Source: an uncultured Bacillus sp. (GTDB lineage: Bacteria > Bacillota > Bacilli > Bacillales > Cytobacillaceae). Taken from it: a DNA stretch of 35,621 nt. Every line of letters starts with the position of its first letter. Positions within the stretch are counted from its first letter, which is position 1. Positions 862-19,339 of this stretch are shown here, piece by piece. The translations under genes were made by a program, and so were the position numbers. Under the pieces are notes generated by a model, which saw nothing but the letters and a program-made list of their open reading frames with translations, was not told the origin of the DNA and did no database searches. The DNA is taken from positions 1 to 35,621 of the forward strand of contig CALGSR010000446.1 of the NCBI GenBank assembly GCA_937902115.1. Direction: 5' to 3'.

Positions 862-1629
862 GTGAATCTATTGGATTTTAAGGAACTCTCTGCATTGAAG
901 GATGAAATCGATAAGAAGCGGCCAATTGCAGCGGATAAAATGGACATATTATCTCAAAAATTTAGAGAAGAATGGACCTATCATAGCAATGCATTGGAAG
1001 GAAATACGTTAACACTAGGAGAAACAGCATTTTTCTTGCGCGAGGGTCTGACGATTAAAGGAAAGACGTTACGTGAACATCAAGAAGTTGCTAATCATGC
1101 GGAAGCGATTCTCTATTTGAGTGAGGCACTAGAAGACAAGGAAATTTCAGAGAGACTTATTAAAGACTTACATGCGATTATTTTTATAGGTGTGAAAGAT
1201 GAAAAAGGGAGATTATTCAAGGGCGGTAGTTACAAAACAGAAGATAATTTTGCTATTACTCTTAGTGGGATCATCAAAAAATATACACCAGCAATCGAAG
1301 TGCAACAAGAAATGGAAGGATTAATCACTTGGTATCAGCGTAGTAAAGAATCATTGCACCCAGTAGAGTTAGCGGCTACATTTCATCATAAGTTAGTTTC
1401 TATTCATCCTTTCCAAGATGGAAACGGAAGAGTATGTAGGCTATGTATGAATTTGATTTTAATGAAGTTCGGTTATCCTCCAGCTGTGATTCGAAAAGAA
1501 GAACGAGAAGACTATTTGCTATCTTTGGAATCAGCTGACAATGGAAATCTAACTCCACTTATTGATTTGGTAGCAAAAGAATTGAAAAAAGGTTTAAAAA
1601 TTATGAAGGAATTTTTGGATGATAATTAA
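862..1629 (+). CDS. Fic-family protein (class II, N-terminal autoinhibitory helix)
   Basis: Fic catalytic motif HPFQDGNGRVCR and inhibitory motif SNALEGN; GTG start after AAGAAG. Confidence 0.93.
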   Translation: MNLLDFKELSALKDEIDKKRPIAADKMDILSQKFREEWTYHSNALEGNTLTLGETAFFLREGLTIKGKTLREHQEVANHAEAILYLSEALEDKEISERLIKDLHAIIFIGVKDEKGRLFKGGSYKTEDNFAITLSGIIKKYTPAIEVQQEMEGLITWYQRSKESLHPVELAATFHHKLVSIHPFQDGNGRVCRLCMNLILMKFGYPPAVIRKEEREDYLLSLESADNGNLTPLIDLVAKELKKGLKIMKEFLDDN

Positions 1630-1996: not shown

Positions 1997-3400
1997 TTAC
2001 ACTTTTTCAATAACAGGAATTGATATCACAGTTTTTAATCCACTTTCACTTGGGGTCGATAGATTCACTTTTCCTTTATGAATAGCAACTATTTCTTTTA
2101 CAATTAATAATCCCAGACCCTTTCTGTTTTTTGGGGGAGAGATGTTTTGTTTATCATTAAAAAGGCTTTTGATTTCCTTAAATTGTTCCTGGGTTATACC
2201 TTTCCCTGTATCTTCTACAACGATATCTATATGTTCCATTTGTTCTTTAATGGATACATAAATTTCACAACCCTCTGGATTATGTTTCATACTATTTAAA
2301 ATCAGGTTACTTATGGCTCTTTTTAATAAACTTTCTTCACCTAAAACTTGGGATTCAGCTGTTATTCCCTCTGCATTGAAGATAATTTGGTATTTATCAT
2401 CTAGGTCGCTGTTTAATATTTCTGTGATGATTTGTCTGACTATTTTTAATGGGAAAATAGAGGACAGTGGTATATTTAAACCTTTACTCTCCAAGTGCGA
2501 CACTAAGTTCAAGTTTTCAATCAATTCTTTTATGATGATACTCTGCTCGGCCATAACATTCACTAGCTGCCTATCTGTTTTACTTAAAGAACCTGTATTT
2601 TTTAGTTTCTCAGAGTAACCTAAAATGATCGATAGAGGTGTACGAATATCATGTGAAATTCCCTCGATCCAATTTTCCCTATTTTTTTCTTTTTCAATTA
2701 GGAAATTATTCTTTTGCTGTAATTCAGCGGAAGTTCGGTTTATACTTTCAGCAATTTCCGAAAATGCTCCTGTTTTCATTAATGCAGCAGGTTTGCCTTC
2801 AGACAGATTCGTGATCCCTTCAATAATTGGCGAAATGGAGCGGTTCATTCGTTTCGTCAGATATAGGTAGACAAATAGTAGAATAAGTAAATCAATTGCA
2901 GCAATGAATAGAAACAGATAGAAGATTTTCTTCATTTCCCCCATTGTATATTCGAGATTAATTTTTACGTAACTATCCTTTGGATACGCTAACACTAAAA
3001 GTCCATCATGATGTTCCCACGTAAATACGGGGTAATCTTCCAAATAGTATCTAGAGAACTGGGAAATATCGGTTAGATTAAATTGCAGAGGAATCCCTGT
3101 TGGTACATTAAGTCCCCAAACCACTTTACCTGTTTCGTTATCTATTAACATTCCCCAAATATTATCATTCGTTAGTCTTGCTTGTAGGTTTGCATCTATA
3201 TGATATTCACCATCTTTATCCTTTTTCAAAGAAGCCGTGGTTTGTTCTAACATGGAAACTGGCAAATCAGCATCCTGATAGTTTTGCACAGTTTGATAAG
3301 TTAATAGAACATAAACTGAAATGTTGATGGAAATTAACAGGAAAAATAAAATGAGGATGAAAAAAATAAACTTTTTAAAGAGCTGTGTAATTTTTTTCAT
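1997..3400 (-). CDS. Sensor histidine kinase (2 TM, HAMP, HisKA, HATPase)
   Basis: H-box ISHDIRTPL, N-box NLILNSMKHN, G-boxes DTGKG and GLGL; overlaps the response regulator stop codon. Confidence 0.95.
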   Translation of the reverse strand: MKKITQLFKKFIFFILILFFLLISINISVYVLLTYQTVQNYQDADLPVSMLEQTTASLKKDKDGEYHIDANLQARLTNDNIWGMLIDNETGKVVWGLNVPTGIPLQFNLTDISQFSRYYLEDYPVFTWEHHDGLLVLAYPKDSYVKINLEYTMGEMKKIFYLFLFIAAIDLLILLFVYLYLTKRMNRSISPIIEGITNLSEGKPAALMKTGAFSEIAESINRTSAELQQKNNFLIEKEKNRENWIEGISHDIRTPLSIILGYSEKLKNTGSLSKTDRQLVNVMAEQSIIIKELIENLNLVSHLESKGLNIPLSSIFPLKIVRQIITEILNSDLDDKYQIIFNAEGITAESQVLGEESLLKRAISNLILNSMKHNPEGCEIYVSIKEQMEHIDIVVEDTGKGITQEQFKEIKSLFNDKQNISPPKNRKGLGLLIVKEIVAIHKGKVNLSTPSESGLKTVISIPVIEKV

Positions 3401-4107
3401 CTAACTTCACGTCTATTCTTGGTTAGTAATTTATAGCCTAATCCCCTTACTGTTAATAAAGATTCAGGTTTAGATGGATTATCTTCAATCTTTTCACGAA
3501 TTCTTCTAATGTGGGCCATTAAAGAGTTCTCATATCCAAAATTATCACCCCAAACAGCCTCGCACAATAAATCAATCGTTACGATCCGGTTGGAATTTTG
3601 GTTTAATGTCTCTAATATTCTATATTCTGTGGCAGTTAATGGGAGCACTGTATCCCTTTTTGTTACAAGCCCTTTATCAAAATCAATTGAACTATGCTGT
3701 AAAAGTACACTTAATTCTTCTGGATAAACTCTTCTTAAAATAGCTTCGATACGTAATATTAATTCTTTCGGTAAAAAGGGTTTGGTGATGTAATCATCAG
3801 CACCCAAAGAAAGTCCTTTTAATTTATCTTTATCTTCCCCTTTGGCTGTCAAAAAGATAACAGGTATATCGGACTTTCGCTGAATAAACTCAAATAAATC
3901 GTAACCGGTACCATCGGGTAACATAATATCCAATATCACTATATCTGGTTCAAAAATCTGTAAAACTTCTTGGGCTTCAATGACAGATTGTGCAGTTTGA
4001 ATATTATTGAAACCATTATCATTAAGAATGGAAACAATCATTTTTAGTAAGGTTCCTTCATCATCGACAATTAGTACCTTCCTGGCATACCTCCCTATTA
4101 CATTCAT
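3397..4107 (-). CDS. OmpR-family response regulator
   Basis: Receiver motifs LIVDDE, ILDIMLPD and GADDYITKPF; C-terminal winged helix HIRRIREKIE..TVRGLGY. Confidence 0.96.
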   Translation of the reverse strand: MNVIGRYARKVLIVDDEGTLLKMIVSILNDNGFNNIQTAQSVIEAQEVLQIFEPDIVILDIMLPDGTGYDLFEFIQRKSDIPVIFLTAKGEDKDKLKGLSLGADDYITKPFLPKELILRIEAILRRVYPEELSVLLQHSSIDFDKGLVTKRDTVLPLTATEYRILETLNQNSNRIVTIDLLCEAVWGDNFGYENSLMAHIRRIREKIEDNPSKPESLLTVRGLGYKLLTKNRREVR

Positions 4108-4173
4108 AATCTACCACCCCCTCTAATGAATTTATCATAATGAAAATGAAAAGTTATTTCCACTTAAGAAAAG

Positions 4174-4211
4174 TAAAGTAAATGTAAGGTAGGAAGAAGG
4201 AGAGTGTAAGG
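4174..4211 (+). promoter_or_regulatory. Four 11-bp-phased direct repeats, probable response-regulator boxes
   Basis: TAAAG at 4174, TAAGG at 4185, GAAGG at 4196 and TAAGG at 4207, between the divergent regulator and ABC genes. Confidence 0.6.
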
Positions 4212-4255
4212 AAGGATTGTTAAATTAATAGATAATAGCGAAGGGGGAAATAAAG

Positions 4256-5005
4256 GTGAACATAATCGAAACAAATGATTTAACAAAAACATATAAAAAT
4301 TTCACTGCCGTCAACAAAGTGAATTTGCATGTAAAAAAAGGCCGTATCTATGGTTTTCTAGGGCCAAATGGTGCTGGAAAATCAACAACTATGAAAATGC
4401 TATTAGGTTTAACAGAACCAACATCAGGTAGTTTTCATATTAATAGTAAAACCTTCCCGAAAGAACGAGAGCTTATATTAAAAAATATTGGTTCCATTAT
4501 TGAAGCACCGTCTTTCTATGGCAATTTAACAGGGCGAGAGAACCTTGATATCATTCGGAAAGTATTGGATTTACCGAAGGAATCAGTCGATGAAACGTTA
4601 AAATTAGTTGGGTTGGATGAATTCGGGGATAGATTAGCAAAAAAGTATTCATTGGGAATGAAGCAAAGATTGGGAATTGCTTCCGCTTTGATTGGAAGCC
4701 CCCCTATATTAATTTTGGATGAACCGACAAATAGTTTAGATCCAGTAGGAACACATGAAATTCGGAATTTAATTATTTCATTACCCAAACAAACAGGCTG
4801 CACGATTATTATATCATCCCATTTATTATCTGAAATGCAATTAATGGCAGAGGATGTTGGCATTCTCAATAAGGGAAGGCTTTTATTTGAAGGCAGTATG
4901 AAAGAATTATATTTAAAAGCAGAAAAGGAAGGGTATGGTTCGGAAAACCTTGAGGATATGTTCCTTGGGATGATTGATAAGGATAACCGAGAGGGAAGAG
5001 GGTGA
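4256..5005 (+). CDS. ABC transporter ATP-binding subunit, LanF/BcrA-type
   Basis: Walker A GPNGAGKST, E-loop IIEAP typical of LanF, signature YSLGMKQRLG, Walker B LILDEPTN. Confidence 0.92.
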   Translation: MNIIETNDLTKTYKNFTAVNKVNLHVKKGRIYGFLGPNGAGKSTTMKMLLGLTEPTSGSFHINSKTFPKERELILKNIGSIIEAPSFYGNLTGRENLDIIRKVLDLPKESVDETLKLVGLDEFGDRLAKKYSLGMKQRLGIASALIGSPPILILDEPTNSLDPVGTHEIRNLIISLPKQTGCTIIISSHLLSEMQLMAEDVGILNKGRLLFEGSMKELYLKAEKEGYGSENLEDMFLGMIDKDNREGRG

Positions 5006-5010
5006 AATAG

Positions 5011-5742
5011 GTGGGGATGCATTCACTAAGTATTGAAGTACAAAAACTACGCAGAGCAGGAGTAATAGGAACACTCATGCTGGCAGGAGCCGCGGGTTCA
5101 ATCTATGCTGTGATGAATTGGGTAGGTCGCAAGGAAGTCTTGCTTGCTGCAGACATCAATCCAATGTCAGTTTTATTAACCCAGTTATACGGTGTTATTT
5201 GTTTGTTAAACATCTTTGCGATCATCGTGATCACTAGTAACATTTATTATATTGAGCATCAAAACAATGGATTAAAAAGGATGCGGACGCTGCCTATTAA
5301 AATTTCAGAAATCTTTACTAGTAAACTGGTTATTTTAAGTGGAACGCTTTTGATAGCGTATGTAATAGAATTTACTACTTTGGCATTGTTAGGGAATCTT
5401 TACTTACCTAAAGAGACATTTGATTTCATTGTACTTATTCAATTTGCATTTTATGTTTTTTTAATATCACTGCCTTGTTTAACCTTAATGTTAATGGTAT
5501 CTATGCTTTCCGCTAATCTTTGGATTACTATTGGAATTGGCGTTGTAGGATTTTTTAGTGGTATGTCGATGGTGGCGATGGATACTGCCGTTAATACACT
5601 AAATCCATTTGCCTTAATATTAAAACCTGCTATGAGTTTATCGGCAGAGGTAGATCTCATTATGTTAATGATTTCTGTTATCGAAACTATAATTTTTGTT
5701 GCGATCGGGATTTTTATTGCAAATAAGAGGAAAGAGGAATAG
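5011..5742 (+). CDS. ABC-2 permease, LanE-like lantibiotic-immunity type
   Basis: About 6 TM segments; N-terminal E-x2-KLRR and EHQNNG..TLP motifs. Confidence 0.85.
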   Translation: MGMHSLSIEVQKLRRAGVIGTLMLAGAAGSIYAVMNWVGRKEVLLAADINPMSVLLTQLYGVICLLNIFAIIVITSNIYYIEHQNNGLKRMRTLPIKISEIFTSKLVILSGTLLIAYVIEFTTLALLGNLYLPKETFDFIVLIQFAFYVFLISLPCLTLMLMVSMLSANLWITIGIGVVGFFSGMSMVAMDTAVNTLNPFALILKPAMSLSAEVDLIMLMISVIETIIFVAIGIFIANKRKEE

Positions 5743-5753
5743 GAGAATGAATT

Positions 5754-6518
5754 ATGACATTTATTCAATTAATTCAAATTGAATTTCAGAAAATAAAGAG
5801 GGCAAAAATAATGCCAATATTAGCTATATGTCCCTTACTTATCATTATTTCGGGGATTAATAGTTTAATGAATTATATTTCTCCGGAAACAGAAGGAGCT
5901 TGGCAGGCTATGTTTGTACAAAGCTGTCTTTTATTCGCTTATTATTTATTACCTTTTACGATGATAGTCGTATCAATATTAATAACCCAACGGGAAAAGG
6001 AAAATAACGGGATTGTAAAAATGCTATCGCTGCCTATCAAAAGGCAAAAGGTGGCTCTTGCTAAGTTTATTGTATTTTTATTTTTCTTGTTCATAGAGGT
6101 TTTGTTGTTTTTCATATTCTTTGTCATTTCCGGCTTATATGCTGCAAACAGGATTGGATTACACGAATCTGTGCCATACGGATATATTCTAGAATGGAGC
6201 GGTATCATATTTTTCACGGCAATCCCTCTTGTTTCACTGATATGGATGTTAGCAATCCTATTCGAAAAGGCAATATTAACGATTGGTATAAGTATGTTAA
6301 TGGTTATAGCTTCTGTATTTATTGCCAATACAAGCTATTGGGCACTTTTCCCTTTTAGCTACAGTGGGATATTCGTAACTGCTGAATTAAGCAGAATCTC
6401 CAATGGAGCAACGAGTTTAAACGTAGATTTATTCCCGTTTATACCAGTGGCACTTCTAATAACAGCTGCTTCTTTATATATTTCTTCCAATAGATTTGGA
6501 AAGATAGAAATAAGGTAA
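5754..6518 (+). CDS. ABC-2 permease, LanG-like lantibiotic-immunity type
   Basis: About 6 TM segments; IEFQKIKR and EKENNG..MLSLP..AK motifs; paralogous to the preceding permease. Confidence 0.85.
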   Translation: MTFIQLIQIEFQKIKRAKIMPILAICPLLIIISGINSLMNYISPETEGAWQAMFVQSCLLFAYYLLPFTMIVVSILITQREKENNGIVKMLSLPIKRQKVALAKFIVFLFFLFIEVLLFFIFFVISGLYAANRIGLHESVPYGYILEWSGIIFFTAIPLVSLIWMLAILFEKAILTIGISMLMVIASVFIANTSYWALFPFSYSGIFVTAELSRISNGATSLNVDLFPFIPVALLITAASLYISSNRFGKIEIR

Positions 6519-6716
6519 AATACCAAATGATGAACATGGAAGGTTTTGCTGCGATAACACGAAAAATGTATGGTATAGTCTCTCGCAAGTTGTATAAACT
6601 GGTGAGAGGCCTCATTTGTATTTCGGACTTTTGGAAAATGCCTGCTTGGATAGATGACCGCCATTCATTTTTCTACATGACATCTTTGATGCTATATAGA
6701 TGTATTTTGTAGATAT

Positions 6717-6821
6717 GATTGTTTAGAAGCCCAAGGATTCATTGGGAAAAGCCCAAGGGAAACGATTAAACAGGCGTTTCAAATTGGAATAATTGAAGAC
6801 GGTCATCTTTAGATCGAGGCT
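6717..6821 (+). pseudogene. Fragment of an HI0074-family (HEPN, nucleotidyltransferase substrate-binding) gene
   Basis: Translates as DCLEAQGFIGKSPRETIKQAFQIGIIEDGHL*IEA. The SPRExIKQAFQxGxIEDG pattern matches my recollection of this family, and TAG stands where a Trp codon (TGG) is expected. No start codon or RBS. Confidence 0.7.
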
Positions 6822-6858
6822 TCCTATGAGTTAAATAGACTTGTGAGAAGTCCTTTTT
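6817..6858. terminator. Degenerate hairpin related to the one at 1891
   Basis: AGGCTTCCTATGAGTTAAATAGACTTGTGAGAAGTCCTTTTT. Confidence 0.55.
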
Positions 6859-7236
6859 GTATTTCTTGTTTTTTCGCACCGTTGTCGGCAACTCCTCCCT
6901 GATGGTGCCTAGTATCACATTCACTTCCGAAGTCAGTAAATATCAGGACTTTTTGGATTACTGCATCGAGAACTATGTGTTATTAACCACCTAAGTTTTA
7001 AATCAATTAGAAATCTACTTTATTACAAGACAAACCAAAAAATGGGTGGTAATAATGGATATGTATAATTCTAACAATTATATAGTTGTAAAAATTATTT
7101 AATTTTTTAAAAATTTGGGAAATTTGTAAAAATTTGTTGTACCCGGTATATTTTTACATCATTATGATGGTAATAGAATTTATTATTGTAGATTAAGAGA
7201 AAATTTCTATACAAAGATAATATAGAGTTCAGATTA

Positions 7237-7360
7237 GGGATAAAAGGTGAAACTTCCATCAATGGGTTTTTTGACGCACAGGAAGTGCTAGTGCAGACAA
7301 AGACATAAGGACATAACGCTACTTAATCGACCTGCTCGTTAAGAGTGGGAAAAATGCTGA
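7237..7360. repeat. Possible degenerate Bacillaceae interspersed repeat
   Basis: GC-richer patch (GGGATAAAAGGTGAAACTTCCATCAATGGG...GACGCACAGGAAGTGCTAGTGC) inside very AT-rich DNA. Resemblance to Bacillus intergenic repeats is from memory only. Confidence 0.3.
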
Positions 7361-7459
7361 ACATGTTAATTGATCAAATGCTTTTAGAAAAATCATATAC
7401 TTTCATACAGAACAAAAGACGTTCGTATGGCATTTATCAAATAGCTTTGAAGGGGGGGA

Positions 7460-7672
7460 ATGACAAACACGCTAGACTTAGCAACGTATAAAATGATGAA
7501 TCAATTTTATAAACTGCAAGAAAATAAGGCTGCTCTCGTATTTATCATTGTATTAATCATTTTATTAGTCTTTGCTTATGATTTTTATTGTACTTCAAAC
7601 GGAATGAACTTCGCAGGGGAACAAAATGTGAAAAAAACAGGCGCATCTTATAAAATCGGTTGTTATACATAG
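7460..7672 (+). CDS. Putative bacteriocin precursor: leader, TM helix and Cys-x23-Cys tail (cluster 1)
   Basis: Strong RBS GAAGGGGGGA; 70 aa; hydrophobic ALVFIIVLIILLVFAY; tail CTSNGMNF...KTGASYKIGC resembles the peptide at 16173. Confidence 0.7.
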   Translation: MTNTLDLATYKMMNQFYKLQENKAALVFIIVLIILLVFAYDFYCTSNGMNFAGEQNVKKTGASYKIGCYT

Positions 7673-7678
7673 CAATAT

Positions 7679-7712
7679 CCTGCACAAACTAGAAAAAAAC
7701 GGCTTGTGCAGG
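7679..7712 (+). promoter_or_regulatory. Stem-loop directly after the precursor gene, without a U-tract
   Basis: CCTGCACAA (7679-7687) pairs with TTGTGCAGG (7704-7712). Confidence 0.55.
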
Positions 7713-7735
7713 TTCAAAAGGTGGATGAGTAAAAG

Positions 7736-8500
7736 ATGAATGAAATATTACAAGTACTAGATTTGAAAAAGTCTTACCATGGCAAACCAATTATCAAGGA
7801 TTTTTCGATTACATTAAAAAAAGCACATATTAGCACATTACTAGGTCACAATGGTGCTGGAAAGACTACTGCAATAAGAACAATACTTGGTCTAGAGGAA
7901 AAGATTAATGGAGAAATTTTATTTAAAGGAAAGAATATTAAGGAAGATTATAATGATTATAAAAGTAAGCTAGGTTTTATACCAGATGATGAGTTATTTG
8001 ATGATCTTACAGCAATGGAGTATTCGAACTTTTTAGGTAAGGTGAGGAAAATTCCCAAGAAGGACTTTGATAATATAACAAATCATCTAATGGATATACT
8101 AGATTTATATTCATTTAGAAATAATCTACTAAAAACCTATTCGCATGGAATGAGACGGAAAGTACAAATTATCTCTGGAATTATCCACAATCCAGAAATT
8201 CTCATTATTGATGAACCTACAAATGGTTTGGACCCAGATATGATTATCACCTTTAAAGAATTAATTAAGATCCTGCGTGATTTAGGTACAGTAATCTTGT
8301 TAAGTACACATAATTTGGAGTTTGCTGAAAATATAAGTGATAGCATTACAATTATAAAAAAAGGTGAGATAAAAATTAGTGGACTTAAACAGCATATGCT
8401 TAAAGAACTTCAGGTAAAAAATCTCGAAGAGGCCTATATAAAAGTAAACTTGGATTCGCAAAAATTGCAAAGTATAAGGGATATATTTAATTATGCATAA
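7736..8500 (+). CDS. ABC transporter ATP-binding protein (cluster 1)
   Basis: Walker A GHNGAGKTT, signature YSHGMRRK, Walker B LIIDEPT, H-loop STH. Confidence 0.93.
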   Translation: MNEILQVLDLKKSYHGKPIIKDFSITLKKAHISTLLGHNGAGKTTAIRTILGLEEKINGEILFKGKNIKEDYNDYKSKLGFIPDDELFDDLTAMEYSNFLGKVRKIPKKDFDNITNHLMDILDLYSFRNNLLKTYSHGMRRKVQIISGIIHNPEILIIDEPTNGLDPDMIITFKELIKILRDLGTVILLSTHNLEFAENISDSITIIKKGEIKISGLKQHMLKELQVKNLEEAYIKVNLDSQKLQSIRDIFNYA

Positions 8501-9929
8501 TACTCTATATTTAAAAATATGGAAAAATAAATTTATACACCAACTAAGGAGAAATCCGATATTTATCGTTTTCCCTATTTTATTTATTGCAATCATTTCC
8601 ATTGCATCGATTAAAATTACAAATGCAAACATTTTAATGATAAAAGAGGTAGGAGATAATCTAGTTGTGAATCAAATACTATCTCAAAGTCTAATGGCCT
8701 CAAATTTATTTTCGCTAATGATTGCTTTATTATTGTTCTTTATCTTTAAGGATAATTTTAATCGGTCAAATTTATTGCGGATTTTGCCGATGGCTAATTA
8801 CCAACTGCTAATGATTGAGTTATTACCATTCATCTGTTTGATAATGGGCTTTGTTTGCGCACTATACACGCCAACGTATATCTATCTATTTATCCAATCC
8901 ATGAATGAATATATTTTCCTGGATTTTCTTTTTATGACGCTCTTCCTATTAATGAATTGTAATGCGATTTTCTTTTCTTTTATAAACGTGTATTTTTTTA
9001 ATAATATTTCAGCATATATTGCGCATAAAATAAGGAAGGAGTTTCTACAGGAACTATTATTTTTTTCGATGATAATGGGGTGTGGCTATGTATACTATCA
9101 GATTTTCAAAAAGACCAATTTCTACGGAATAGTGACAAATAATATTTTTGTAGAAGGAGAGACCCTCGCAACATTATTTAATTGCCTACCGATTATTATA
9201 TTATCTGCTATTATTTTATTCCTATTTTGTATCATTAGTTTTATGCAAAAGATACCATTACAAAATGGGTCGACTGCATTTCTATTCATTCCGTTTTCGA
9301 AGTTCTTTCCTTTAAATGTTGTTGTATTAGAGTTTAAAAGAGTTGCTCGAGATTATCAACGAATTATGACCATTAACTTTTTATTTTTATGTCTTTTACT
9401 ACTCAATTGGTTCGCTCTTAAAAACCCGGAGAATAATGAATTGCTAATGATTTCGCAGTTTATCCCTATGTTTGTGATTGAAATCGTCATTTTACTTCCA
9501 TTAGTCGCTAATTCAAGGGATTATAAGAAAGAAAACCTAATTTATTTATTACCGACTAAATACGATTATTTTATTATTCTAAAATTAACATTCTATCTGG
9601 TTTTATCGCTCCTTTTAGCGGGTACTTACTTTATTCTCCATTCATTATTTGGTTTAGATCAATCTGCCATTCATTTAGCATTGTTTTTTGAAATTTTGCT
9701 CTTTACAATAATTGCTTTTCTTGTTGGAACATTTTTACCTTCTGACAAAAATTCTGGACTTCAAGAGGGACTAGGATTAATCATTTTATTTATTCTATAT
9801 TTCACTTTAACCTATACAATGAACTCTTTGGGAATTTACAAAATTGAATATTTAGTATTGCTTTGTTTCCTCCTTTTTCTCCTTTCCCCATTTGTCATTA
9901 AAAGAGTTTCAGTGGGAGTTCATAAATAA
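8493..9929 (+). CDS. Multi-pass membrane protein, probable fused ABC-2 permease (cluster 1)
   Basis: 478 aa with about 12 hydrophobic segments; mid-protein LEFKRVARD typical of ABC-2 permease halves; overlaps the ATPase stop. Confidence 0.75.
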   Translation: MHNTLYLKIWKNKFIHQLRRNPIFIVFPILFIAIISIASIKITNANILMIKEVGDNLVVNQILSQSLMASNLFSLMIALLLFFIFKDNFNRSNLLRILPMANYQLLMIELLPFICLIMGFVCALYTPTYIYLFIQSMNEYIFLDFLFMTLFLLMNCNAIFFSFINVYFFNNISAYIAHKIRKEFLQELLFFSMIMGCGYVYYQIFKKTNFYGIVTNNIFVEGETLATLFNCLPIIILSAIILFLFCIISFMQKIPLQNGSTAFLFIPFSKFFPLNVVVLEFKRVARDYQRIMTINFLFLCLLLLNWFALKNPENNELLMISQFIPMFVIEIVILLPLVANSRDYKKENLIYLLPTKYDYFIILKLTFYLVLSLLLAGTYFILHSLFGLDQSAIHLALFFEILLFTIIAFLVGTFLPSDKNSGLQEGLGLIILFILYFTLTYTMNSLGIYKIEYLVLLCFLLFLLSPFVIKRVSVGVHK

Positions 9930-9930
9930 G

Positions 9931-10428
9931 ATGATTACGGAGATAAGCCCCACGAAATTTAACATTTTTCTAGTTGCTAACGTATTTTATGGTATGAGAA
10001 ATTTTCTTGTTTTCCATTTGTTTTTTTGTTTGGCGGTATTTATGATTTTAGTCTTATTCGCAAGTTCTTCTTTAGGGAACTTATTCTTAATGATTTACGC
10101 GAACTTTATAATAAGTATGGTTTTACATAAGTTTGGACATCTCATTCCATATCTTCTGTTTACGAAATGTAGGCAATTTTTCATTATTAAGTCAAGTTTA
10201 TTCGAATTGTCGATTATTACAAAGGAAAATTCAAGGCTGCAACATGTAATCATTGCCTTTTCAGGGCCAGCAATTTGTTTATTCGTAGGGGTTGCTGTCA
10301 TACAAGCCAATCCACTAATCGGACTTGTATACTGCCTTCATATCGTGAACTATTATCCAACATTGCAAGATGGTGAAAATATACTAAAAAATATAATAAG
10401 GAGTCGAAAAAAGCATGGAAGTATTTAA
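9931..10428 (+). CDS. Small site-2/M50-like intramembrane metalloprotease with degenerate HExxH (HKFGH)
   Basis: LHKFGH, IAFSGP and NYYPTLQDG match the M50 pattern HExxH...AGP...N-x-P-x-DG. ATG at 9931 follows GGGAG. Confidence 0.7.
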   Translation: MITEISPTKFNIFLVANVFYGMRNFLVFHLFFCLAVFMILVLFASSSLGNLFLMIYANFIISMVLHKFGHLIPYLLFTKCRQFFIIKSSLFELSIITKENSRLQHVIIAFSGPAICLFVGVAVIQANPLIGLVYCLHIVNYYPTLQDGENILKNIIRSRKKHGSI

Positions 10429-10696
10429 AAAAGTATCTACAGGTTTTTTTATTTTTGTTCTTCTTTATGCGTTATTGGTTATGTTTATTCCATTGCTCTT
10501 AGATTTTATGAATATAACAATGAATGTAAAAATAAAACTATTCTCATTAGAACTTGGTGAAATTGTTAATAATTCAAAAGAAATGTATGGAATATTAACT
10601 ATTAATGGTCTCTTACTATCTGGTATAGTTGGTGCATTATTAAATATCTCATTTTATTATATGTTTAGAAGAAGAACCCACCATTCACCGCTTTGA
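10415..10696 (+). CDS. Small 2-TM protein with a beta-rich loop (immunity or accessory, possibly LlsX-like)
   Basis: 93 aa, two TM helices, RBS AGGAG, translationally coupled; counterpart of 18319-18606. Confidence 0.65.
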   Translation: MEVFKKVSTGFFIFVLLYALLVMFIPLLLDFMNITMNVKIKLFSLELGEIVNNSKEMYGILTINGLLLSGIVGALLNISFYYMFRRRTHHSPL

Positions 10697-10710
10697 AGAA
10701 GCGGTGTTTT
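10686..10710 (+). terminator. Rho-independent terminator ending cluster 1
   Basis: CACCGCTT-tgaag-AAGCGGTG-TTTT. Confidence 0.75.
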
Positions 10711-11005
10711 CTCTTATAATGACTTCTTCCACAATTGGAAAGTGATCGGTACGGGGCCTGACTTCATGATGTTGGGCTGCCTTTTCTTTTTATCTTTAGT
10801 AATCGTTCAAACGAAAGGGTATTTATATGAGAAACAATCATAACATTATAGAAAAAACCTGATATTTTATGCTTTGGATAATAAAAGATAGAATCTATAT
10901 GTTATTTTTTCGCTTTTTTATAACGTAACGTTTAAAATTGTAATATAATGTACAAAAATATATAGTATATAAAACAAAATTTTTGATGAATGGGAGGTAG
11001 GAGAT

Positions 11006-12226
11006 ATGGTTAGGCATTTATATAAAATTTTTAGAGAAAAGGAACGTTTAGAATTCGATCATATTTTTAAAGAAAGACAGAATTATGAAAGTTTGATGAA
11101 ACTTCCGTTTAAAATAAAACCATTAGATCAACCTGAAAATTTCACACTGTATTATATACCGACTCAAAATATCATTGAACTTATTGTTAAGATTTATAAA
11201 CAAGATAACCAATTATTGAAACTAAGTAGTGAGTTGCCGTCAATTGCGAAAAAAAATCTAATTTTAGAATTGTTGGTTGATGAACTGCACAATACAAATG
11301 ATTTAGAAGGTGTAAGAAGTACAAAAGAAGAAATCATTAGAAGTGCGAGAGAAGTAGAGGCAAGTCCGGATAAAAAGACTAATCACAGATTCAGCAGCAT
11401 GGTTTCTACTTATTACAATTTACTCAGGGATGAAAAAGTAGTGATAAATGAACCGAGAGATATCAGGGAAATTTATGATGACATTACGGAAGATGAAATA
11501 GAAAAGAATGAGATTCCTGATGGTAAAATGTTTAGAGTTGATACCACTTACGTTTATAAGAAAAGCGGATCAGGGAAAGTAATTCATAGAGGAATTACTC
11601 CTGAAGATAAAATTATCGAGGCAATTGAACAATTGATCAATTTTATGAATGAGGGAGATTTTCCTTTTTTGATAAAAATCGCTGTTGGACATTATTATTT
11701 TGGATATATACACCCTTTTTACGATGGCAATGGAAGAACATCTAGATTTATAAGCAGCTTATATCTTAATAATGAGTGTAGTGAATTAACTGCTCTTTCT
11801 TTATCAAGAGGATGTAATAATTTTAGAAGTAAATATTTACATTCGTTCGAAATAGCTAATAGCTTTGCTAACAGAGGTGAAATGAATAACTTTATTGAAA
11901 ATTTTTTAGCAATCATTTCTGAAACTCAACAGGAAATGATTTTACAGGTTAAGGAAAAAGTACATTTATTTGATAATCTTTGGGAAATACTTGATAGCGA
12001 CCACCGACTGGATGAACGTTGTAAAGGAATTATGTTTATATTAGCTCAGAATTATTATTTTGCACTTGATGAAAAAGGATTAACAGTTAGGGAATTAGCC
12101 GAAATTACCAAGAAATCCTCACAGTACATTAGGAGTATTTTAAAAGAGTTAGGCAACTATGACATAATCAGTCAAAGAGGAGAACGTCCAATTATTTATT
12201 CAATTAGCGAAAAGTATTTTGATTAA
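11006..12226 (+). CDS. Fic-family protein with C-terminal winged HTH
   Basis: HPFYDGNGRTSR, inhibitory motif TNDLEG, C-terminal LTVRELAEITKKS..IRSILKEL; RBS GGAGG. Confidence 0.93.
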   Translation: MVRHLYKIFREKERLEFDHIFKERQNYESLMKLPFKIKPLDQPENFTLYYIPTQNIIELIVKIYKQDNQLLKLSSELPSIAKKNLILELLVDELHNTNDLEGVRSTKEEIIRSAREVEASPDKKTNHRFSSMVSTYYNLLRDEKVVINEPRDIREIYDDITEDEIEKNEIPDGKMFRVDTTYVYKKSGSGKVIHRGITPEDKIIEAIEQLINFMNEGDFPFLIKIAVGHYYFGYIHPFYDGNGRTSRFISSLYLNNECSELTALSLSRGCNNFRSKYLHSFEIANSFANRGEMNNFIENFLAIISETQQEMILQVKEKVHLFDNLWEILDSDHRLDERCKGIMFILAQNYYFALDEKGLTVRELAEITKKSSQYIRSILKELGNYDIISQRGERPIIYSISEKYFD

Positions 12227-16172: not shown

Positions 16173-16439
16173 ATGAGTTTATCGTTAGAGAATACACTTA
16201 TTCTACTTTACACACGAGTACTTTTATTTATTGGAAACGTAAAAGAAAGTTTGGTAAAACAGAGTGATAATCAAAAGTTAAAATTATTTGCTGGTCCACT
16301 TGTATTCATTGTAGTTGTTATTGCAGTTGTATTTGTGGCATGGGCACTTGGTCAAACGATTTGCTGGGCAACAACAGGCAAGGACTTTGTATTCGCTACA
16401 AAGTTAAAAGAAGGAGAATTCCGTTTAGGTTGTCAATAA
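16173..16439 (+). CDS. Putative bacteriocin precursor: leader, TM helix and Cys-x22-Cys tail (cluster 2)
   Basis: RBS GAGGAG; 88 aa; TM PLVFIVVVIAVVFVAWALG; tail CWATTGKDF...KEGEFRLGC. Confidence 0.7.
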   Translation: MSLSLENTLILLYTRVLLFIGNVKESLVKQSDNQKLKLFAGPLVFIVVVIAVVFVAWALGQTICWATTGKDFVFATKLKEGEFRLGCQ

Positions 16440-16485
16440 TAAACTAAAACCTTTCATAACCTTCTGTTCTCTTAATGGATTTGGA

Positions 16486-17865
16486 GTGGAAAAGATGGTA
16501 AGAGACTTCATTTTATTGTTAACGGTCTTATTGTATAAAGTAAAGAATCGAATCCTAATATTTGCATCACAAAGGCCAGAAGTGTTTTTTTCGTTTTTAC
16601 TCATCGTATTGGTAGGAGGAAGTGCGGCTCTATTCCTTCCAATGTTGCTAGATTTTCAAGTCGAGATGACAGAGGAACAGTTTCCTAGAATATCTTATAC
16701 TTTTATCACGGCTTCCCTGTTTCCTTTTATTGTTTGGGTATTAAGACAGAACCATGAAGAAACACAGTCTTTCACGATATTGGACTACATGTATCGAGGG
16801 TATTTTGTTTATTTTAAGTCTGTATTTCAGTATATAGCCCCTGCTTTTTTGTCTTTTGTTTTTCTTTATCTGATCCTATCCATCTATTCAAATCTATCAA
16901 TCTTGTATTCTTTGCTATTCTGGCATATTGTGGGTTTAAGTATTATGGTGATCAGTTATTCTTTCGCATTATTGATAAACAACAAGGGAATAGACTGGAG
17001 GCTTATTAAACATTCTCATACTTTTTTAAAAACTGTAGTCGTGATTTTAGTTTTACTTATTATGATGCTTCCGTTTCATAAAGGATTAGGTACACTATGG
17101 TTATCCAAATCTGTGCCTTTTGAATTCTTAATAGTTTTATTTATAGGGTTAATGTGCTTGTATATTTTTCTTATTTCTCAAAAAGTTCGATTTGGAAAGG
17201 GACACGATGGGCTGGAAAGCAGCCGCACTCGATTTAAAGACCAGGACTCTATTTATTCCTTTCTTCTATTGGTAGATAGTGGGAAGGTATTCCTTTTTCA
17301 TTTCTTATCGATCTTATTTTTGTTCATTTTATCTTTGATTACCGAACAGCCTTTTGTTATGATGGAACTTTTTCAGATTATTATCATTATAGGAAACATC
17401 GGTTTGATCTTTCATAAAGTAGAAAAAGTAGCAAGGCCGTTATATGCATTACGCGCTTCTAATTTTACCTTTTCCATATGGCTTTTACACTTTTATGTAC
17501 TGATTTCGATTGTATCCGTTCTGATCTTTTACATTTTGATTTCTATATCTAGTGAGTATTCCTTATTCTTTTTATTAGAGAATACGGAACCTCTCGTGAG
17601 CGGAATCGTTCTTTATTTTTGTATTTTCTTATCCATTGTGGTGAGTTACTTATTCGGTGACTATTTTGGACCAATTGTTCAATCAATTTCTAGTGGGGTC
17701 ATTTTAATTATTAGCTATAAAATTGTCCCTGAGATTTTCCTTAGAGTAACGATGATTCACAACATTTTTTTAGAAGGGGTTGTATGGTTATTCCTTGTGT
17801 GTGTCATGTTTCTTATTAAATGGCTGACCATACAAGATTATAGTAAATATGACTTTACTGCGTAG
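16486..17865 (+). CDS. Multi-pass membrane protein, probable permease (cluster 2)
   Basis: 459 aa with about 12 hydrophobic segments in two halves; same size class as 8493-9929. Confidence 0.75.
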   Translation: MEKMVRDFILLLTVLLYKVKNRILIFASQRPEVFFSFLLIVLVGGSAALFLPMLLDFQVEMTEEQFPRISYTFITASLFPFIVWVLRQNHEETQSFTILDYMYRGYFVYFKSVFQYIAPAFLSFVFLYLILSIYSNLSILYSLLFWHIVGLSIMVISYSFALLINNKGIDWRLIKHSHTFLKTVVVILVLLIMMLPFHKGLGTLWLSKSVPFEFLIVLFIGLMCLYIFLISQKVRFGKGHDGLESSRTRFKDQDSIYSFLLLVDSGKVFLFHFLSILFLFILSLITEQPFVMMELFQIIIIIGNIGLIFHKVEKVARPLYALRASNFTFSIWLLHFYVLISIVSVLIFYILISISSEYSLFFLLENTEPLVSGIVLYFCIFLSIVVSYLFGDYFGPIVQSISSGVILIISYKIVPEIFLRVTMIHNIFLEGVVWLFLVCVMFLIKWLTIQDYSKYDFTA

Positions 17866-18322
17866 TTATCTTCATTTGGTGTTATTCTGCTTGTCGCACT
17901 CTAAGGTGTTTTTATTGGTGTGTTTTCTTATTATTTGGCTGATGTCAACGGATTGGTTACTGTCAATAGGGCTTGTGCTATTATTTCTATTGTATACGTG
18001 TTTTCATGAATTCGGTCATCTAATATTTTTGAAAAAATATCAGTTGGATTATCAACTTGAGGTCACTTATTTACTATTGAATGTTTCTTTTTGTGCTGCT
18101 TCCTTTAGGAAGCTTACATTCTCCCAAAAACTACAGATTGTTTTAGGTGGTCCCCTGTTTGGTTGTTTATATGGGGGGAGTCTATTATTCCTATTGGAAT
18201 CATCTAGCTATTTGATATGGCTTGTCGTTCTTATCATTCTATCGGAAGGGATGAACCTACTCTTTGGTCAAGATGGTAAGTTACTAGAAAAAGTAATAAA
18301 AGAAAGGAAGAGAACAAAATGA
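17849..18322 (+). CDS. Small site-2/M50-like intramembrane zinc metalloprotease (cluster 2)
   Basis: FHEFGH within a TM segment, IVLGGP and NLLFGQDG. Confidence 0.78.
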   Translation: MTLLRSYLHLVLFCLSHSKVFLLVCFLIIWLMSTDWLLSIGLVLLFLLYTCFHEFGHLIFLKKYQLDYQLEVTYLLLNVSFCAASFRKLTFSQKLQIVLGGPLFGCLYGGSLLFLLESSSYLIWLVVLIILSEGMNLLFGQDGKLLEKVIKERKRTK

Positions 18323-18606
18323 GAAATATTCGAGTGTACTTGATTTGTACCATTCTCAATCTTTTACTGTTAGTTTTTTCAAGCTTTTATTTTTTTGCTA
18401 AAAACTTAAGTGAGCCTGTGAAAGAGAATACATACATTCCTTTTGAAGGGTTATATCTGTACGAGTTATTAGAGAATGGTGAAGTCTCTGTCCACATTAT
18501 TAACATTTTGATTTATTCTGTCGTGCTTGCGATTCCTGTTTTCTTTCTATTGAAATTTTTTAGTCAAATAATAACGAAAAAATTAATCAATAAAGGAAAT
18601 CTGTAA
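18319..18606 (+). CDS. Small 2-TM protein (immunity or accessory, possibly LlsX-like; cluster 2)
   Basis: 95 aa, two TM helices flanking YIPFEGLYLYEL; ATGA overlap with the protease gene. Confidence 0.65.
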   Translation: MRNIRVYLICTILNLLLLVFSSFYFFAKNLSEPVKENTYIPFEGLYLYELLENGEVSVHIINILIYSVVLAIPVFFLLKFFSQIITKKLINKGNL

Positions 18607-18607
18607 G

Positions 18608-19339
18608 ATGCTTTCAGCTATTTCGGTCAATCATTTAACGAAAACTTTTGGAACGAATCGCGCTTTGGATGACATTCATTTAACCTTTGATAAGAACAAG
18701 ACCTATGCGGTTTTAGGGCATAATGGGGCTGGGAAAACCACTTTAATAAGAGAAATTTTGGGTTTTGGCAACAAGAGGAATTCAGCTATAGAGTATCGAA
18801 CTGAAACGCAAACGATTCAAAAAGTGAAGCTTCATATGTCTTTTTCACCTGAGAAATATGAATTGTTAGAGGACTTAACAGTTTATGAATATTTACAATT
18901 TGTAGCCAAATTATACAAACAGTATAACGATCAGGTTCTAATGAAAATGGAGGAATTACTCGAGTACTTTGAATTAGAGGATAAAAGAAATAAATTTATC
19001 TTCACATTATCGAATGGAATGAAGAAGAAGCTATGTCATATTTCCGCATTAGCAGTGGAGACCGATTTTGTTTTCCTAGATGAACCTTTCGCAGCTTTAG
19101 ATCCTGTTTCCATTTATCACTTAAAAAAATATATTGTTGACCATTCCGGTTCAAGAGGCTTTATTATTTGTACGCACCAATTGGACATAATCGATAAAAT
19201 GGAATTTCAAGAGGATACATTGGAGATTATTTTACTGAATCAAGGAGAACTGAAATTTAAAGGAGATAAAAAGTCTCTTTTTGAATCTACTAGTAAGCAT
19301 TCGATTGAAGAGGCATATATTGATTATCATAAGAGGTAA
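18608..19339 (+). CDS. ABC transporter ATP-binding protein (cluster 2)
   Basis: Walker A GHNGAGKTT, LSNGMKKK, FLDEPF, CTH; C-terminal IEEAYI like the cluster 1 ATPase (LEEAYI). Confidence 0.93.
   Translation: MLSAISVNHLTKTFGTNRALDDIHLTFDKNKTYAVLGHNGAGKTTLIREILGFGNKRNSAIEYRTETQTIQKVKLHMSFSPEKYELLEDLTVYEYLQFVAKLYKQYNDQVLMKMEELLEYFELEDKRNKFIFTLSNGMKKKLCHISALAVETDFVFLDEPFAALDPVSIYHLKKYIVDHSGSRGFIICTHQLDIIDKMEFQEDTLEIILLNQGELKFKGDKKSLFESTSKHSIEEAYIDYHKR

What the first reader, a model, noticed from the sequence alone, without database searches (positions are those of the whole stretch)
7460..10696. Cluster 1: transmembrane-helix peptide with disulfide tail, mini site-2 protease and ABC exporter (TMcin-like bacteriocin locus)
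Seen: a tightly coupled operon of a 70-aa peptide (amphipathic leader, ~17-residue TM helix, C-x23-C tail with alternating beta-like pattern), a post-peptide stem-loop, an ABC ATPase, a ~12-TM permease, an M50-like protease and a 2-TM protein. There are no modification enzymes and no double-glycine leader. Known: precursor plus intramembrane protease plus ABC exporter is peptide-toxin logic (e.g. YydFGHIJ, which additionally has a radical SAM enzyme). Inference: a membrane-anchored, disulfide-closed beta-hairpin pore-former. From memory this resembles the recently described TM-helix bacteriocins (TMcins); I have not verified homology.
Basis: partly seen in the sequence, partly recalled or inferred. 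Interest (0 to 1): 0.85.

Follow-up and report, generated by a model that had tools for sequence, protein, structure and literature searches.

The report
Short-helix TMcin bacteriocin operon, likely crippled
A five-gene operon encodes a small two-cysteine membrane peptide with an exporter, a membrane protease and a likely helper, distantly related to the TMcin bacteriocin machinery; it likely belongs to a shorter-helix branch of pore-forming antibacterial peptides, but this copy's protease has lysine in place of its catalytic glutamate and is likely inactive.

Summary
The permease (HHalign 97%), protease (97%) and ATPase are homologues of those in clusters of the published TmcA type. The peptide is linked through intermediates: a profile of 22 related peptides ranks it first, then all 9 canonical TmcA, ahead of the genome's other ~24,900 frames. 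It is not a canonical TMcin: no Trp pair, and a helix about five residues shorter. It belongs to a 'YC' branch (26 representatives at 50% identity, 25 with both Cys) absent from the published 142-sequence list. The window copy also has a one-residue loss in the ATPase Q-loop region, Asp in the helix, a shortened RBS spacer, a weakened hairpin and no upstream regulator, so it is probably decaying. Cleavage, disulfide, pores and killing are inferred from TMcin-G1905, not shown. A second such cluster with an intact motif lies at 16173-19339. Verdict: new variant of a known kind; interest 0.5.

The parts
7450..7458 (+). Ribosome-binding site of the peptide gene, only one base from the ATG; relatives have a 5-7 base longer spacer
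   Evidence: (table 4)
7460..7672 (+). Precursor peptide (TmcA-like, short-helix 'YC' type): predicted helical leader 4-19, membrane helix 23-46, Cys44-Cys68 loop predicted as beta-hairpin 50-58/61-69; private Asp41 in the helix
7679..7712 (+). Stem-loop between peptide and ATPase genes (likely stabilises the peptide mRNA or damps read-through); conserved in relatives, weakened here
7736..8500 (+). ABC ATPase (TmcB-like); Walker A, signature and Walker B intact; one Asp codon missing at 7984 in the Q-loop region relative to relatives
8493..9929 (+). 12-helix single-chain permease (TmcC-like)
   Evidence: HHalign 97.4%, 439 columns; E 4.5e-24, rank 1
9931..10428 (+). Small site-2-type intramembrane protease (TmcP-like, divergent DUF3267), His66, His70, Pro143, Asp147 kept; no PqqD/RRE extension
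   Evidence: (rank 1, E 8.5e-8)
10129..10131 (+). Lys codon at the place of the catalytic Glu of HExxH; private to this copy
10415..10696 (+). 93-aa two-helix protein (TmcE-like by size, topology and place; direct homology to canonical TmcE not shown)
10686..10714 (+). Terminator-like hairpin and T tract closing the operon; the block shared with relatives ends at about 10720

Best explanation
The operon is a divergent, short-helix relative of TMcin bacteriocin clusters whose peptide is predicted to be cut, disulfide-closed, exported and to form pores in other Gram-positive bacteria, but this copy is likely crippled because its protease has Lys in place of the catalytic Glu. Shown: gene content and order, homology of ATPase, permease, protease and (by intermediates) peptide to TMcin clusters, conservation of both Cys, and the private lesions. 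Inferred from TMcin-G1905 (PMC13712780, PMC12328743): the 70-aa precursor inserts in the membrane, N-terminus inside; the host's DsbA/DsbB-type enzymes join Cys44-Cys68 outside; the 2-helix protein stands in for the protease's missing gate helices and escorts the peptide; the protease cuts near residues 22-24 (by alignment; mature form about 46-48 aa, 5.1-5.3 kDa); the ABC exporter lifts it out of the membrane; in a target cell many copies assemble, hairpins lining a beta-barrel and helices anchoring it. In this copy the precursor would stay uncut in the membrane, as in the tmcP catalytic mutant of TMcin-G1905. Split of my confidence: TMcin-superfamily homology about 0.95; antibacterial pore-former in intact relatives about 0.8; this copy impaired about 0.7.
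For: Profiles from 9 canonical clusters rank the window protease 1st (E 8.5e-8), ATPase 2nd and permease 3rd of 24,906 frames of the genome; with 7 further loci added and the window's family left out, permease and peptide both rank 1st (E 4.5e-24, 1.3e-7). HHalign window family vs canonical: permease 97.4%, protease 96.9%; peptide vs second-tier peptides 96.3%, 0 of 100 segment-wise shuffles as high. A profile of 22 related peptides scores the window peptide, then 9 of 9 canonical TmcA (E 9e-10 to 3e-4), then the second window peptide, above all other frames; HHalign to canonical 97.4% with both Cys and the F-x-G aligned. 25 of 26 representatives keep both Cys. AlphaFold2 with a 17-row alignment gives helix plus hairpin, pLDDT 71.5, and both strands alternate polar and apolar residues. 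The genome has one DsbB and one DsbA-like gene. Cassette behaviour fits a competition locus: 29.7% GC against 39.5%, 0 of 268 genomes of the own family hold the permease, flanks differ in all three copies. Decay: HExxH in 25 of 26 loci, only the window has Lys; Q-loop codon present in runs X2, X3, X5 and in L023, L024; Asp at Cys-3 in 0 of 26 representatives; pN/pS 0.28 on the window branch vs 0.10 and 0.19 (Fisher p 0.003 vs L023).
Against: Direct peptide-to-canonical similarity is weak (E 1.8; HHalign 25-72%, 4 of 100 shuffles as high). No Trp in the peptide and a helix about five residues shorter than in 9 of 9 canonical TmcA. With only the 4 close sequences AlphaFold2 gave no hairpin (tail pLDDT under 50), so the hairpin model leans on the canonical rows. 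The 2-helix protein shows no direct homology to canonical TmcE (2%). The 22-peptide profile came from a search seeded with the window peptide and holds one long-helix member (P0042). All five frames are still open and pN/pS is below 1, so decay is recent or partial; the Lys codon was not confirmed in an independent contig. Only one TMcin has been studied experimentally in the papers found.
Confidence: 0.6

Rival explanations
1. Same machinery, but this copy is active: the Lys codon is an assembly or minority-strain error, or the protease of the second cluster (17849-18322, HEFGH) cuts both precursors, and the peptide's private changes are diversification of the toxin.
For: All frames intact; 7 of the 8 private peptide substitutions lie in the predicted mature part, some needing two base changes; permease has no more private changes than relatives (18 vs 29 and 11); the genome is a fragmented assembly (533 contigs).
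Against: Lesions of several kinds coincide (RBS spacer, hairpin, ATPase codon, Glu, missing regulator); the two proteases are only about 20% identical and the peptides 25-27%, so cross-processing is doubtful.
Confidence: 0.2
2. The copy has become an immunity-only cassette: production is switched off while exporter and 2-helix protein are kept to clear incoming peptide from relatives.
For: Lesions concentrate on production (RBS, peptide, protease); immunity is encoded on the TMcin plasmid (PMC12328743, Fig. 1d text).
Against: The ATPase also carries a lesion and the 2-helix protein has 4 private changes; the immunity gene of TMcins is not identified in either paper.
Confidence: 0.1
3. The short-helix branch is not a pore-former but a released signalling or surface peptide that uses TMcin-type processing.
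For: Shorter helix, no Trp anchors, loop charge from -3 to +5 across the branch; a response regulator lies upstream in both close relatives; site-2 proteases make pheromones (established knowledge).
Against: Loop length, Cys pair, F-x-G and polar/apolar alternation are kept as in pore-forming TmcA; patchy, low-GC, multi-copy distribution is typical of bacteriocins; no sensor kinase in the shared block.
Confidence: 0.1

Closest known systems
TMcin clusters (tmcA, tmcB, tmcC, tmcP, tmcE; TMcin-G1905 of Staphylococcus aureus; PMC12328743, PMC13712780)
   Same: Five core genes with matching sizes and topology; homologous ATPase, 12-helix permease and DUF3267-like site-2 protease; precursor with leader, one helix and a Cys-closed loop (x23 here, x23-24 in canonical); no DsbA gene in the cluster, as in most non-staphylococcal clusters; order A-B-C-P-E as in the Bacillus and clostridial canonical loci fetched.
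   Different: No Trp pair; helix about 18-20 instead of 23-25 residues; Tyr-Cys and Gly-Cys in place of Trp-Cys and Glu-Cys; not in the published list; protease without catalytic Glu in this copy; protease lacks the PqqD-like extension of the canonical A-B-C-P-E loci.
Epipeptide locus EpeXEPAB (YydFGHIJ) of Bacillus subtilis
   Same: Peptide plus intramembrane M50 protease plus ABC transporter (PMC10885120, passage read).
   Different: No radical SAM epimerase; hydrophobic Cys-looped peptide; 12-helix permease and 2-helix protein.
Class II double-glycine bacteriocins with a disulfide (pediocin-like; recalled)
   Same: Small unmodified peptide with a Cys pair, exported by an ABC system.
   Different: No GG leader, no C39 peptidase domain on the transporter, helix N-terminal and hairpin C-terminal.

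Membership tests
TMcin | Precursor with leader, one transmembrane helix and a C-terminal loop | tested here: met
TMcin | Two conserved Cys closing the loop | tested here: met
   Cys44/Cys68 in 4 of 4 close sequences, 25 of 26 representatives
TMcin | Sequence homology of the precursor to TmcA | tested here: met
   Through intermediates; direct comparison weak
TMcin | Helix flanked by two highly conserved Trp (23 residues from first Trp to Cys) | tested here: not met
   No Trp in the helix; uncharged run 20 in intact relatives vs 24-26 in 9 of 9 canonical. Six Bifidobacterium entries of the published list also have Tyr before the Cys (read by eye)
TMcin | Amphipathic two-stranded beta-hairpin after the helix | tested here: inconclusive
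   Present with 17-row alignment incl. 7 canonical rows, absent with 4 rows; alternation seen
TMcin | TmcB ATPase and 12-helix TmcC permease | tested here: met
   ATPase has a one-residue loss near the Q-loop
TMcin | TmcP: DUF3267-type site-2 protease fold with distal Pro and Asp | tested here: met
   intact relatives hit PF11667 below cut-off, the window protein does not
TMcin | Intact HExxH in the protease | tested here: not met
   HKFGH in the window; HEFGH in P0003, P0009, L023, L024
TMcin | TmcE two-helix escort protein | tested here: inconclusive
   Size, topology and place fit; HHalign 93.8% to second-tier loci, 2% to canonical
TMcin | Leader removal, disulfide, secretion, large pores, killing of Gram-positive bacteria | not testable with these tools
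   Needs expression, mass spectrometry, bilayer and killing assays
Epipeptide (YydFGHIJ) | Radical SAM epimerase in the cluster | tested here: not met
   none among 35 window proteins
Class II double-glycine bacteriocin | GG leader and C39 peptidase-containing transporter | tested here: not met

The most novel reading that the evidence does not exclude
TMcins are a much wider superfamily than published: a short-helix, Trp-poor 'YC' branch (at least 26 clusters at 50% identity, across Bacilli) uses the same five-gene machine to make pore-formers with a thinner hydrophobic belt and other pore sizes or target ranges, and the superfamily splits into two leader-recognition modes, a PqqD/RRE-fused protease with a [YF]xxP leader (14 of 14 loci) and a bare protease with a leader lacking that motif (10 of 10 loci, this one among them).
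Probability: 0.55. Interest if true: 0.68.

Novelty: new variant of a known kind. Interest (0 to 1): 0.5.

Why it matters
TMcins (2025) are the first small bacteriocins reported to form large stable barrel pores, and only one member is characterised in the papers found. A branch with a shorter helix and no Trp anchors gives natural variants to test which features set pore size, solubility and target range, and shows that mining by the precursor alone misses much of the family while the protease finds it. The RRE/leader pairing offers a direct test of how an intramembrane protease picks its substrate. The window copy itself is a poor candidate for production; the intact relatives and the second cluster are better.

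Tried and rejected
Pfam and NCBIfam name none of peptide, permease, window protease or 2-helix protein. Word-index searches found only close relatives (2 hits each). Metagenome scan with the permease: 311 pattern matches, none confirmed. A pattern scan with the protease alignment could not be built. The pCT545 record is not in the held collections, so TMcin-G1905 itself was not compared by program; canonical stand-ins were two plasmid clusters whose TmcA accessions are in the published list (L002, L007) and Bacillales loci found with one of them. Of five ATPase-hit plasmid regions fetched, three (L003, L004, L006) were unrelated. Phylum-wide search with a 52-aa canonical fragment gave 1 real hit and 3 marginal ones among 401 genomes. 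PDB by sequence profile and by fold: nothing significant. ESM Atlas: best scores 0.87 (peptide; unnamed 68-91-aa clusters of Actinomycetota and Bacillota) and 0.85 (2-helix protein; DUF5963/LlsX), leads only. Complex prediction of protease + 2-helix protein + peptide: no answer, score 0.20 against a mark of 0.32. No RNA holder listed. Laid contigs did not bridge the Lys codon in a near-identical strain; run X1 matches the window without differences in 8 listed pieces but may share its source, and its pieces end under 31 bases from the RBS and Asp41 sites. Promoter scan: 25 sites, as many as in shuffles. Tree of permease + protease for 26 loci: canonical loci do not form one clade in FastTree, but the AU test is borderline (p 0.046) with a time-cut free search and a fast constrained one, so inconclusive. 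Earlier scan notes: nothing bearing.
Full report
Observation. The five frames, their coupling, the two hairpins and the C-x23-C tail are as described. The block has 29.7% GC in a 39.5% genome, and its permease was found in 0 of 268 other genomes of the host's family: a mobile cassette. Two corrections: the protease starts at 9931, and its motif is HKFGH.

What is published. I read parts 1-4 of 10 of PMC12328743 (abstract, results, discussion, first methods), passages and the whole Fig. 3a source sheet, 142 TmcA sequences; its four supplementary PDFs I did not read. I read parts 1-4 of 6 of PMC13712780 and passages; its supplements I did not read; the bioRxiv version I saw only as a listing. 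TMcin-G1905 has a 45-residue leader, a helix between two conserved Trp, and a disulfide-pinned hairpin; TmcP (DUF3267, site-2 clan) cuts it, 2-helix TmcE is needed for the cut, TmcBC (12 helices) exports it, and tmcD is said to be missing outside staphylococci. By eye, no entry of the sheet resembles the window peptide; all have the long helix, six Bifidobacterium entries have Tyr before the Cys. Searches for TMcin (3 relevant of 10 listed), DUF3267, Lederbergia lenta with bacteriocin, S. pseudintermedius with bacteriocin/pore/disulfide, and four branch motifs found no description of the short-helix branch; the library lacks most subscription papers.

Homology test. The ATPase led to two plasmid clusters whose TmcA accessions are in the published list (L002, L007); their TmcA found canonical loci in 10 of 401 Bacillales genomes (plus 4 marginal hits), 8 of which I fetched and 7 used. 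Profiles of these 9 clusters, run over 24,906 frames of the genome, rank the window protease 1st, ATPase 2nd, permease 3rd (E 0.044) and peptide 5th (E 1.8, not significant); the 2-helix protein is not found. A protease profile matched 19 of 401 genomes; of 9 new loci fetched, 7 show the operon with non-canonical peptides, 1 is an unrelated M50 protease and 1 (L059) is of the close type and was not counted. Adding these loci, still without the window's family, ranks permease (E 4.5e-24) and peptide (E 1.3e-7) first. HHalign: permease 97.4% and protease 96.9% to canonical; peptide 96.3% to the second tier (0 of 100 shuffles) but 25% to canonical (4 of 100); 2-helix protein 93.8% to the second tier, 2% to canonical.

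The branch. A 7-row peptide profile matched 11 of 401 Bacilli genomes, own included; of 7 loci fetched, 6 carry a short-helix peptide beside ATPase, protease and 2-helix gene (the permease passed the profile in 4 of the 6; in L083 a 458-aa frame stands in its place) and 1 is canonical. Against 1.84 billion representatives it gave 26 hits: 25 keep both Cys, 20 have Tyr before the first, median uncharged run 21 against 24-26 in 9 canonical; where an N-terminal Trp is present it mostly lies 16-20 residues before the Cys, against 23. A profile of 22 of them (window-like rows P0012, P0021, P0032, P0036 left out) scores the window peptide, all 9 canonical TmcA and the second window peptide above every other frame.

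Fold. AlphaFold2 gave two helices and a disordered tail with 4 rows, and leader helix 4-19, membrane helix 23-46 and strands 50-58 and 61-69 (pLDDT 71.5) with 17 rows, 7 of them canonical. This agrees with TMcin but is not independent of it. No solved relative was found.

State of this copy. Glu of HExxH is described as activating the attacking water, and motif mutations lower site-2 protease activity (PMC10202637, passages). 25 of 26 loci have it (most were found with a profile that favours it, but the four close relatives were not). Further private changes: one Asp codon lost near the ATPase Q-loop (present in L023, L024 and runs X2, X3, X5); Ala41Asp in the helix (0 of 26 representatives); RBS spacer 5-7 bases shorter; hairpin weakened; the response regulator upstream in both relatives is absent, best genome hit 28% identity in an 88.5% complete genome. 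Private changes are 41 synonymous to 43 non-synonymous, against 59:23 and 193:137 (simple three-way counts). Against decay: no stop or frameshift, pN/pS 0.28, permease not enriched in changes, 7 of 8 peptide changes in the mature part, and the Lys codon unconfirmed by independent contigs.

Mechanism and verdict. It most likely works like a TMcin cluster; each chemical and pore step is inferred from TMcin-G1905. It is not filed as a canonical TMcin because the Trp-flanked long helix and, in this copy, the catalytic Glu are not met. It is a new variant of a known kind. The family extension is the value; the window copy is probably a decaying example. Interest 0.5.

Noticed in passing
window 16173-19339: Second TMcin-like cluster, order peptide-permease-protease-2-helix-ATPase, with intact HEFGH; 88-aa peptide (C-x22-C) has relatives P0032 (44% identical) and P0036; protease 97% by HHalign to the family, permease not detectably (4%).
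   Followed up: partly
G000 contig C361, about 6500-9600 (L058): Third, degenerate cluster in the same genome: ATPase, permease split in two frames, protease with HELGH, 2-helix gene; only a leader-like fragment of a peptide upstream.
   Followed up: partly
24 loci (L002, L007, L023-L031, L060-L062, L065, L066, L080-L085, both window clusters): 14 of 14 loci whose protease has an N-terminal extension (PqqD hit in 6 of 6 scanned) have a [YF]xxP-x-hydrophobic leader; 10 of 10 with a bare protease lack it. Motif chosen after seeing the sequences; kin not independent; L063, L064 left out. Neither TMcin paper's main text has the words PqqD or RRE.
   Followed up: partly
L002:7389-8637, L007:3973-5206, L025:9520-10128, L029:9619-10227: Several non-staphylococcal canonical clusters do carry a thioredoxin-domain gene (no CxxC pair obvious in the clostridial ones), and the two clostridial ones a second, DUF3267 protease.
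   Followed up: no
L063 upstream of 8822; L064:2767-3132: Same machinery beside more divergent peptides: two tandem Cys-looped peptides with an amphipathic rather than hydrophobic helix (L063), and a 121-aa longer form (L064).
   Followed up: no
P0040 cluster (P0052-P0065), P0033 cluster: Short-helix peptides are common in Staphylococcus pseudintermedius (one member on 575 contigs) and Streptococcus sobrinus (147 contigs), annotated hypothetical; context not checked.
   Followed up: no
window 6527-6990: Broken remnant upstream of the operon that reads like a nucleotidyltransferase substrate-binding gene (label recalled; no Pfam hit for the 61-aa piece; frames).
   Followed up: no
window 862-1629 and 11006-12226; 1997-6518: Two Fic-domain genes flank the region, and a two-component system with a lantibiotic-protection-type ABC-2 transporter lies just upstream: an island of defence and competition genes.
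   Followed up: no
window 10415-10696: ESM Atlas nearest clusters for the 2-helix protein are LlsX/DUF5963 proteins (score 0.85, lead only), hinting that 2-helix escorts may be shared with other peptide clusters.
   Followed up: no
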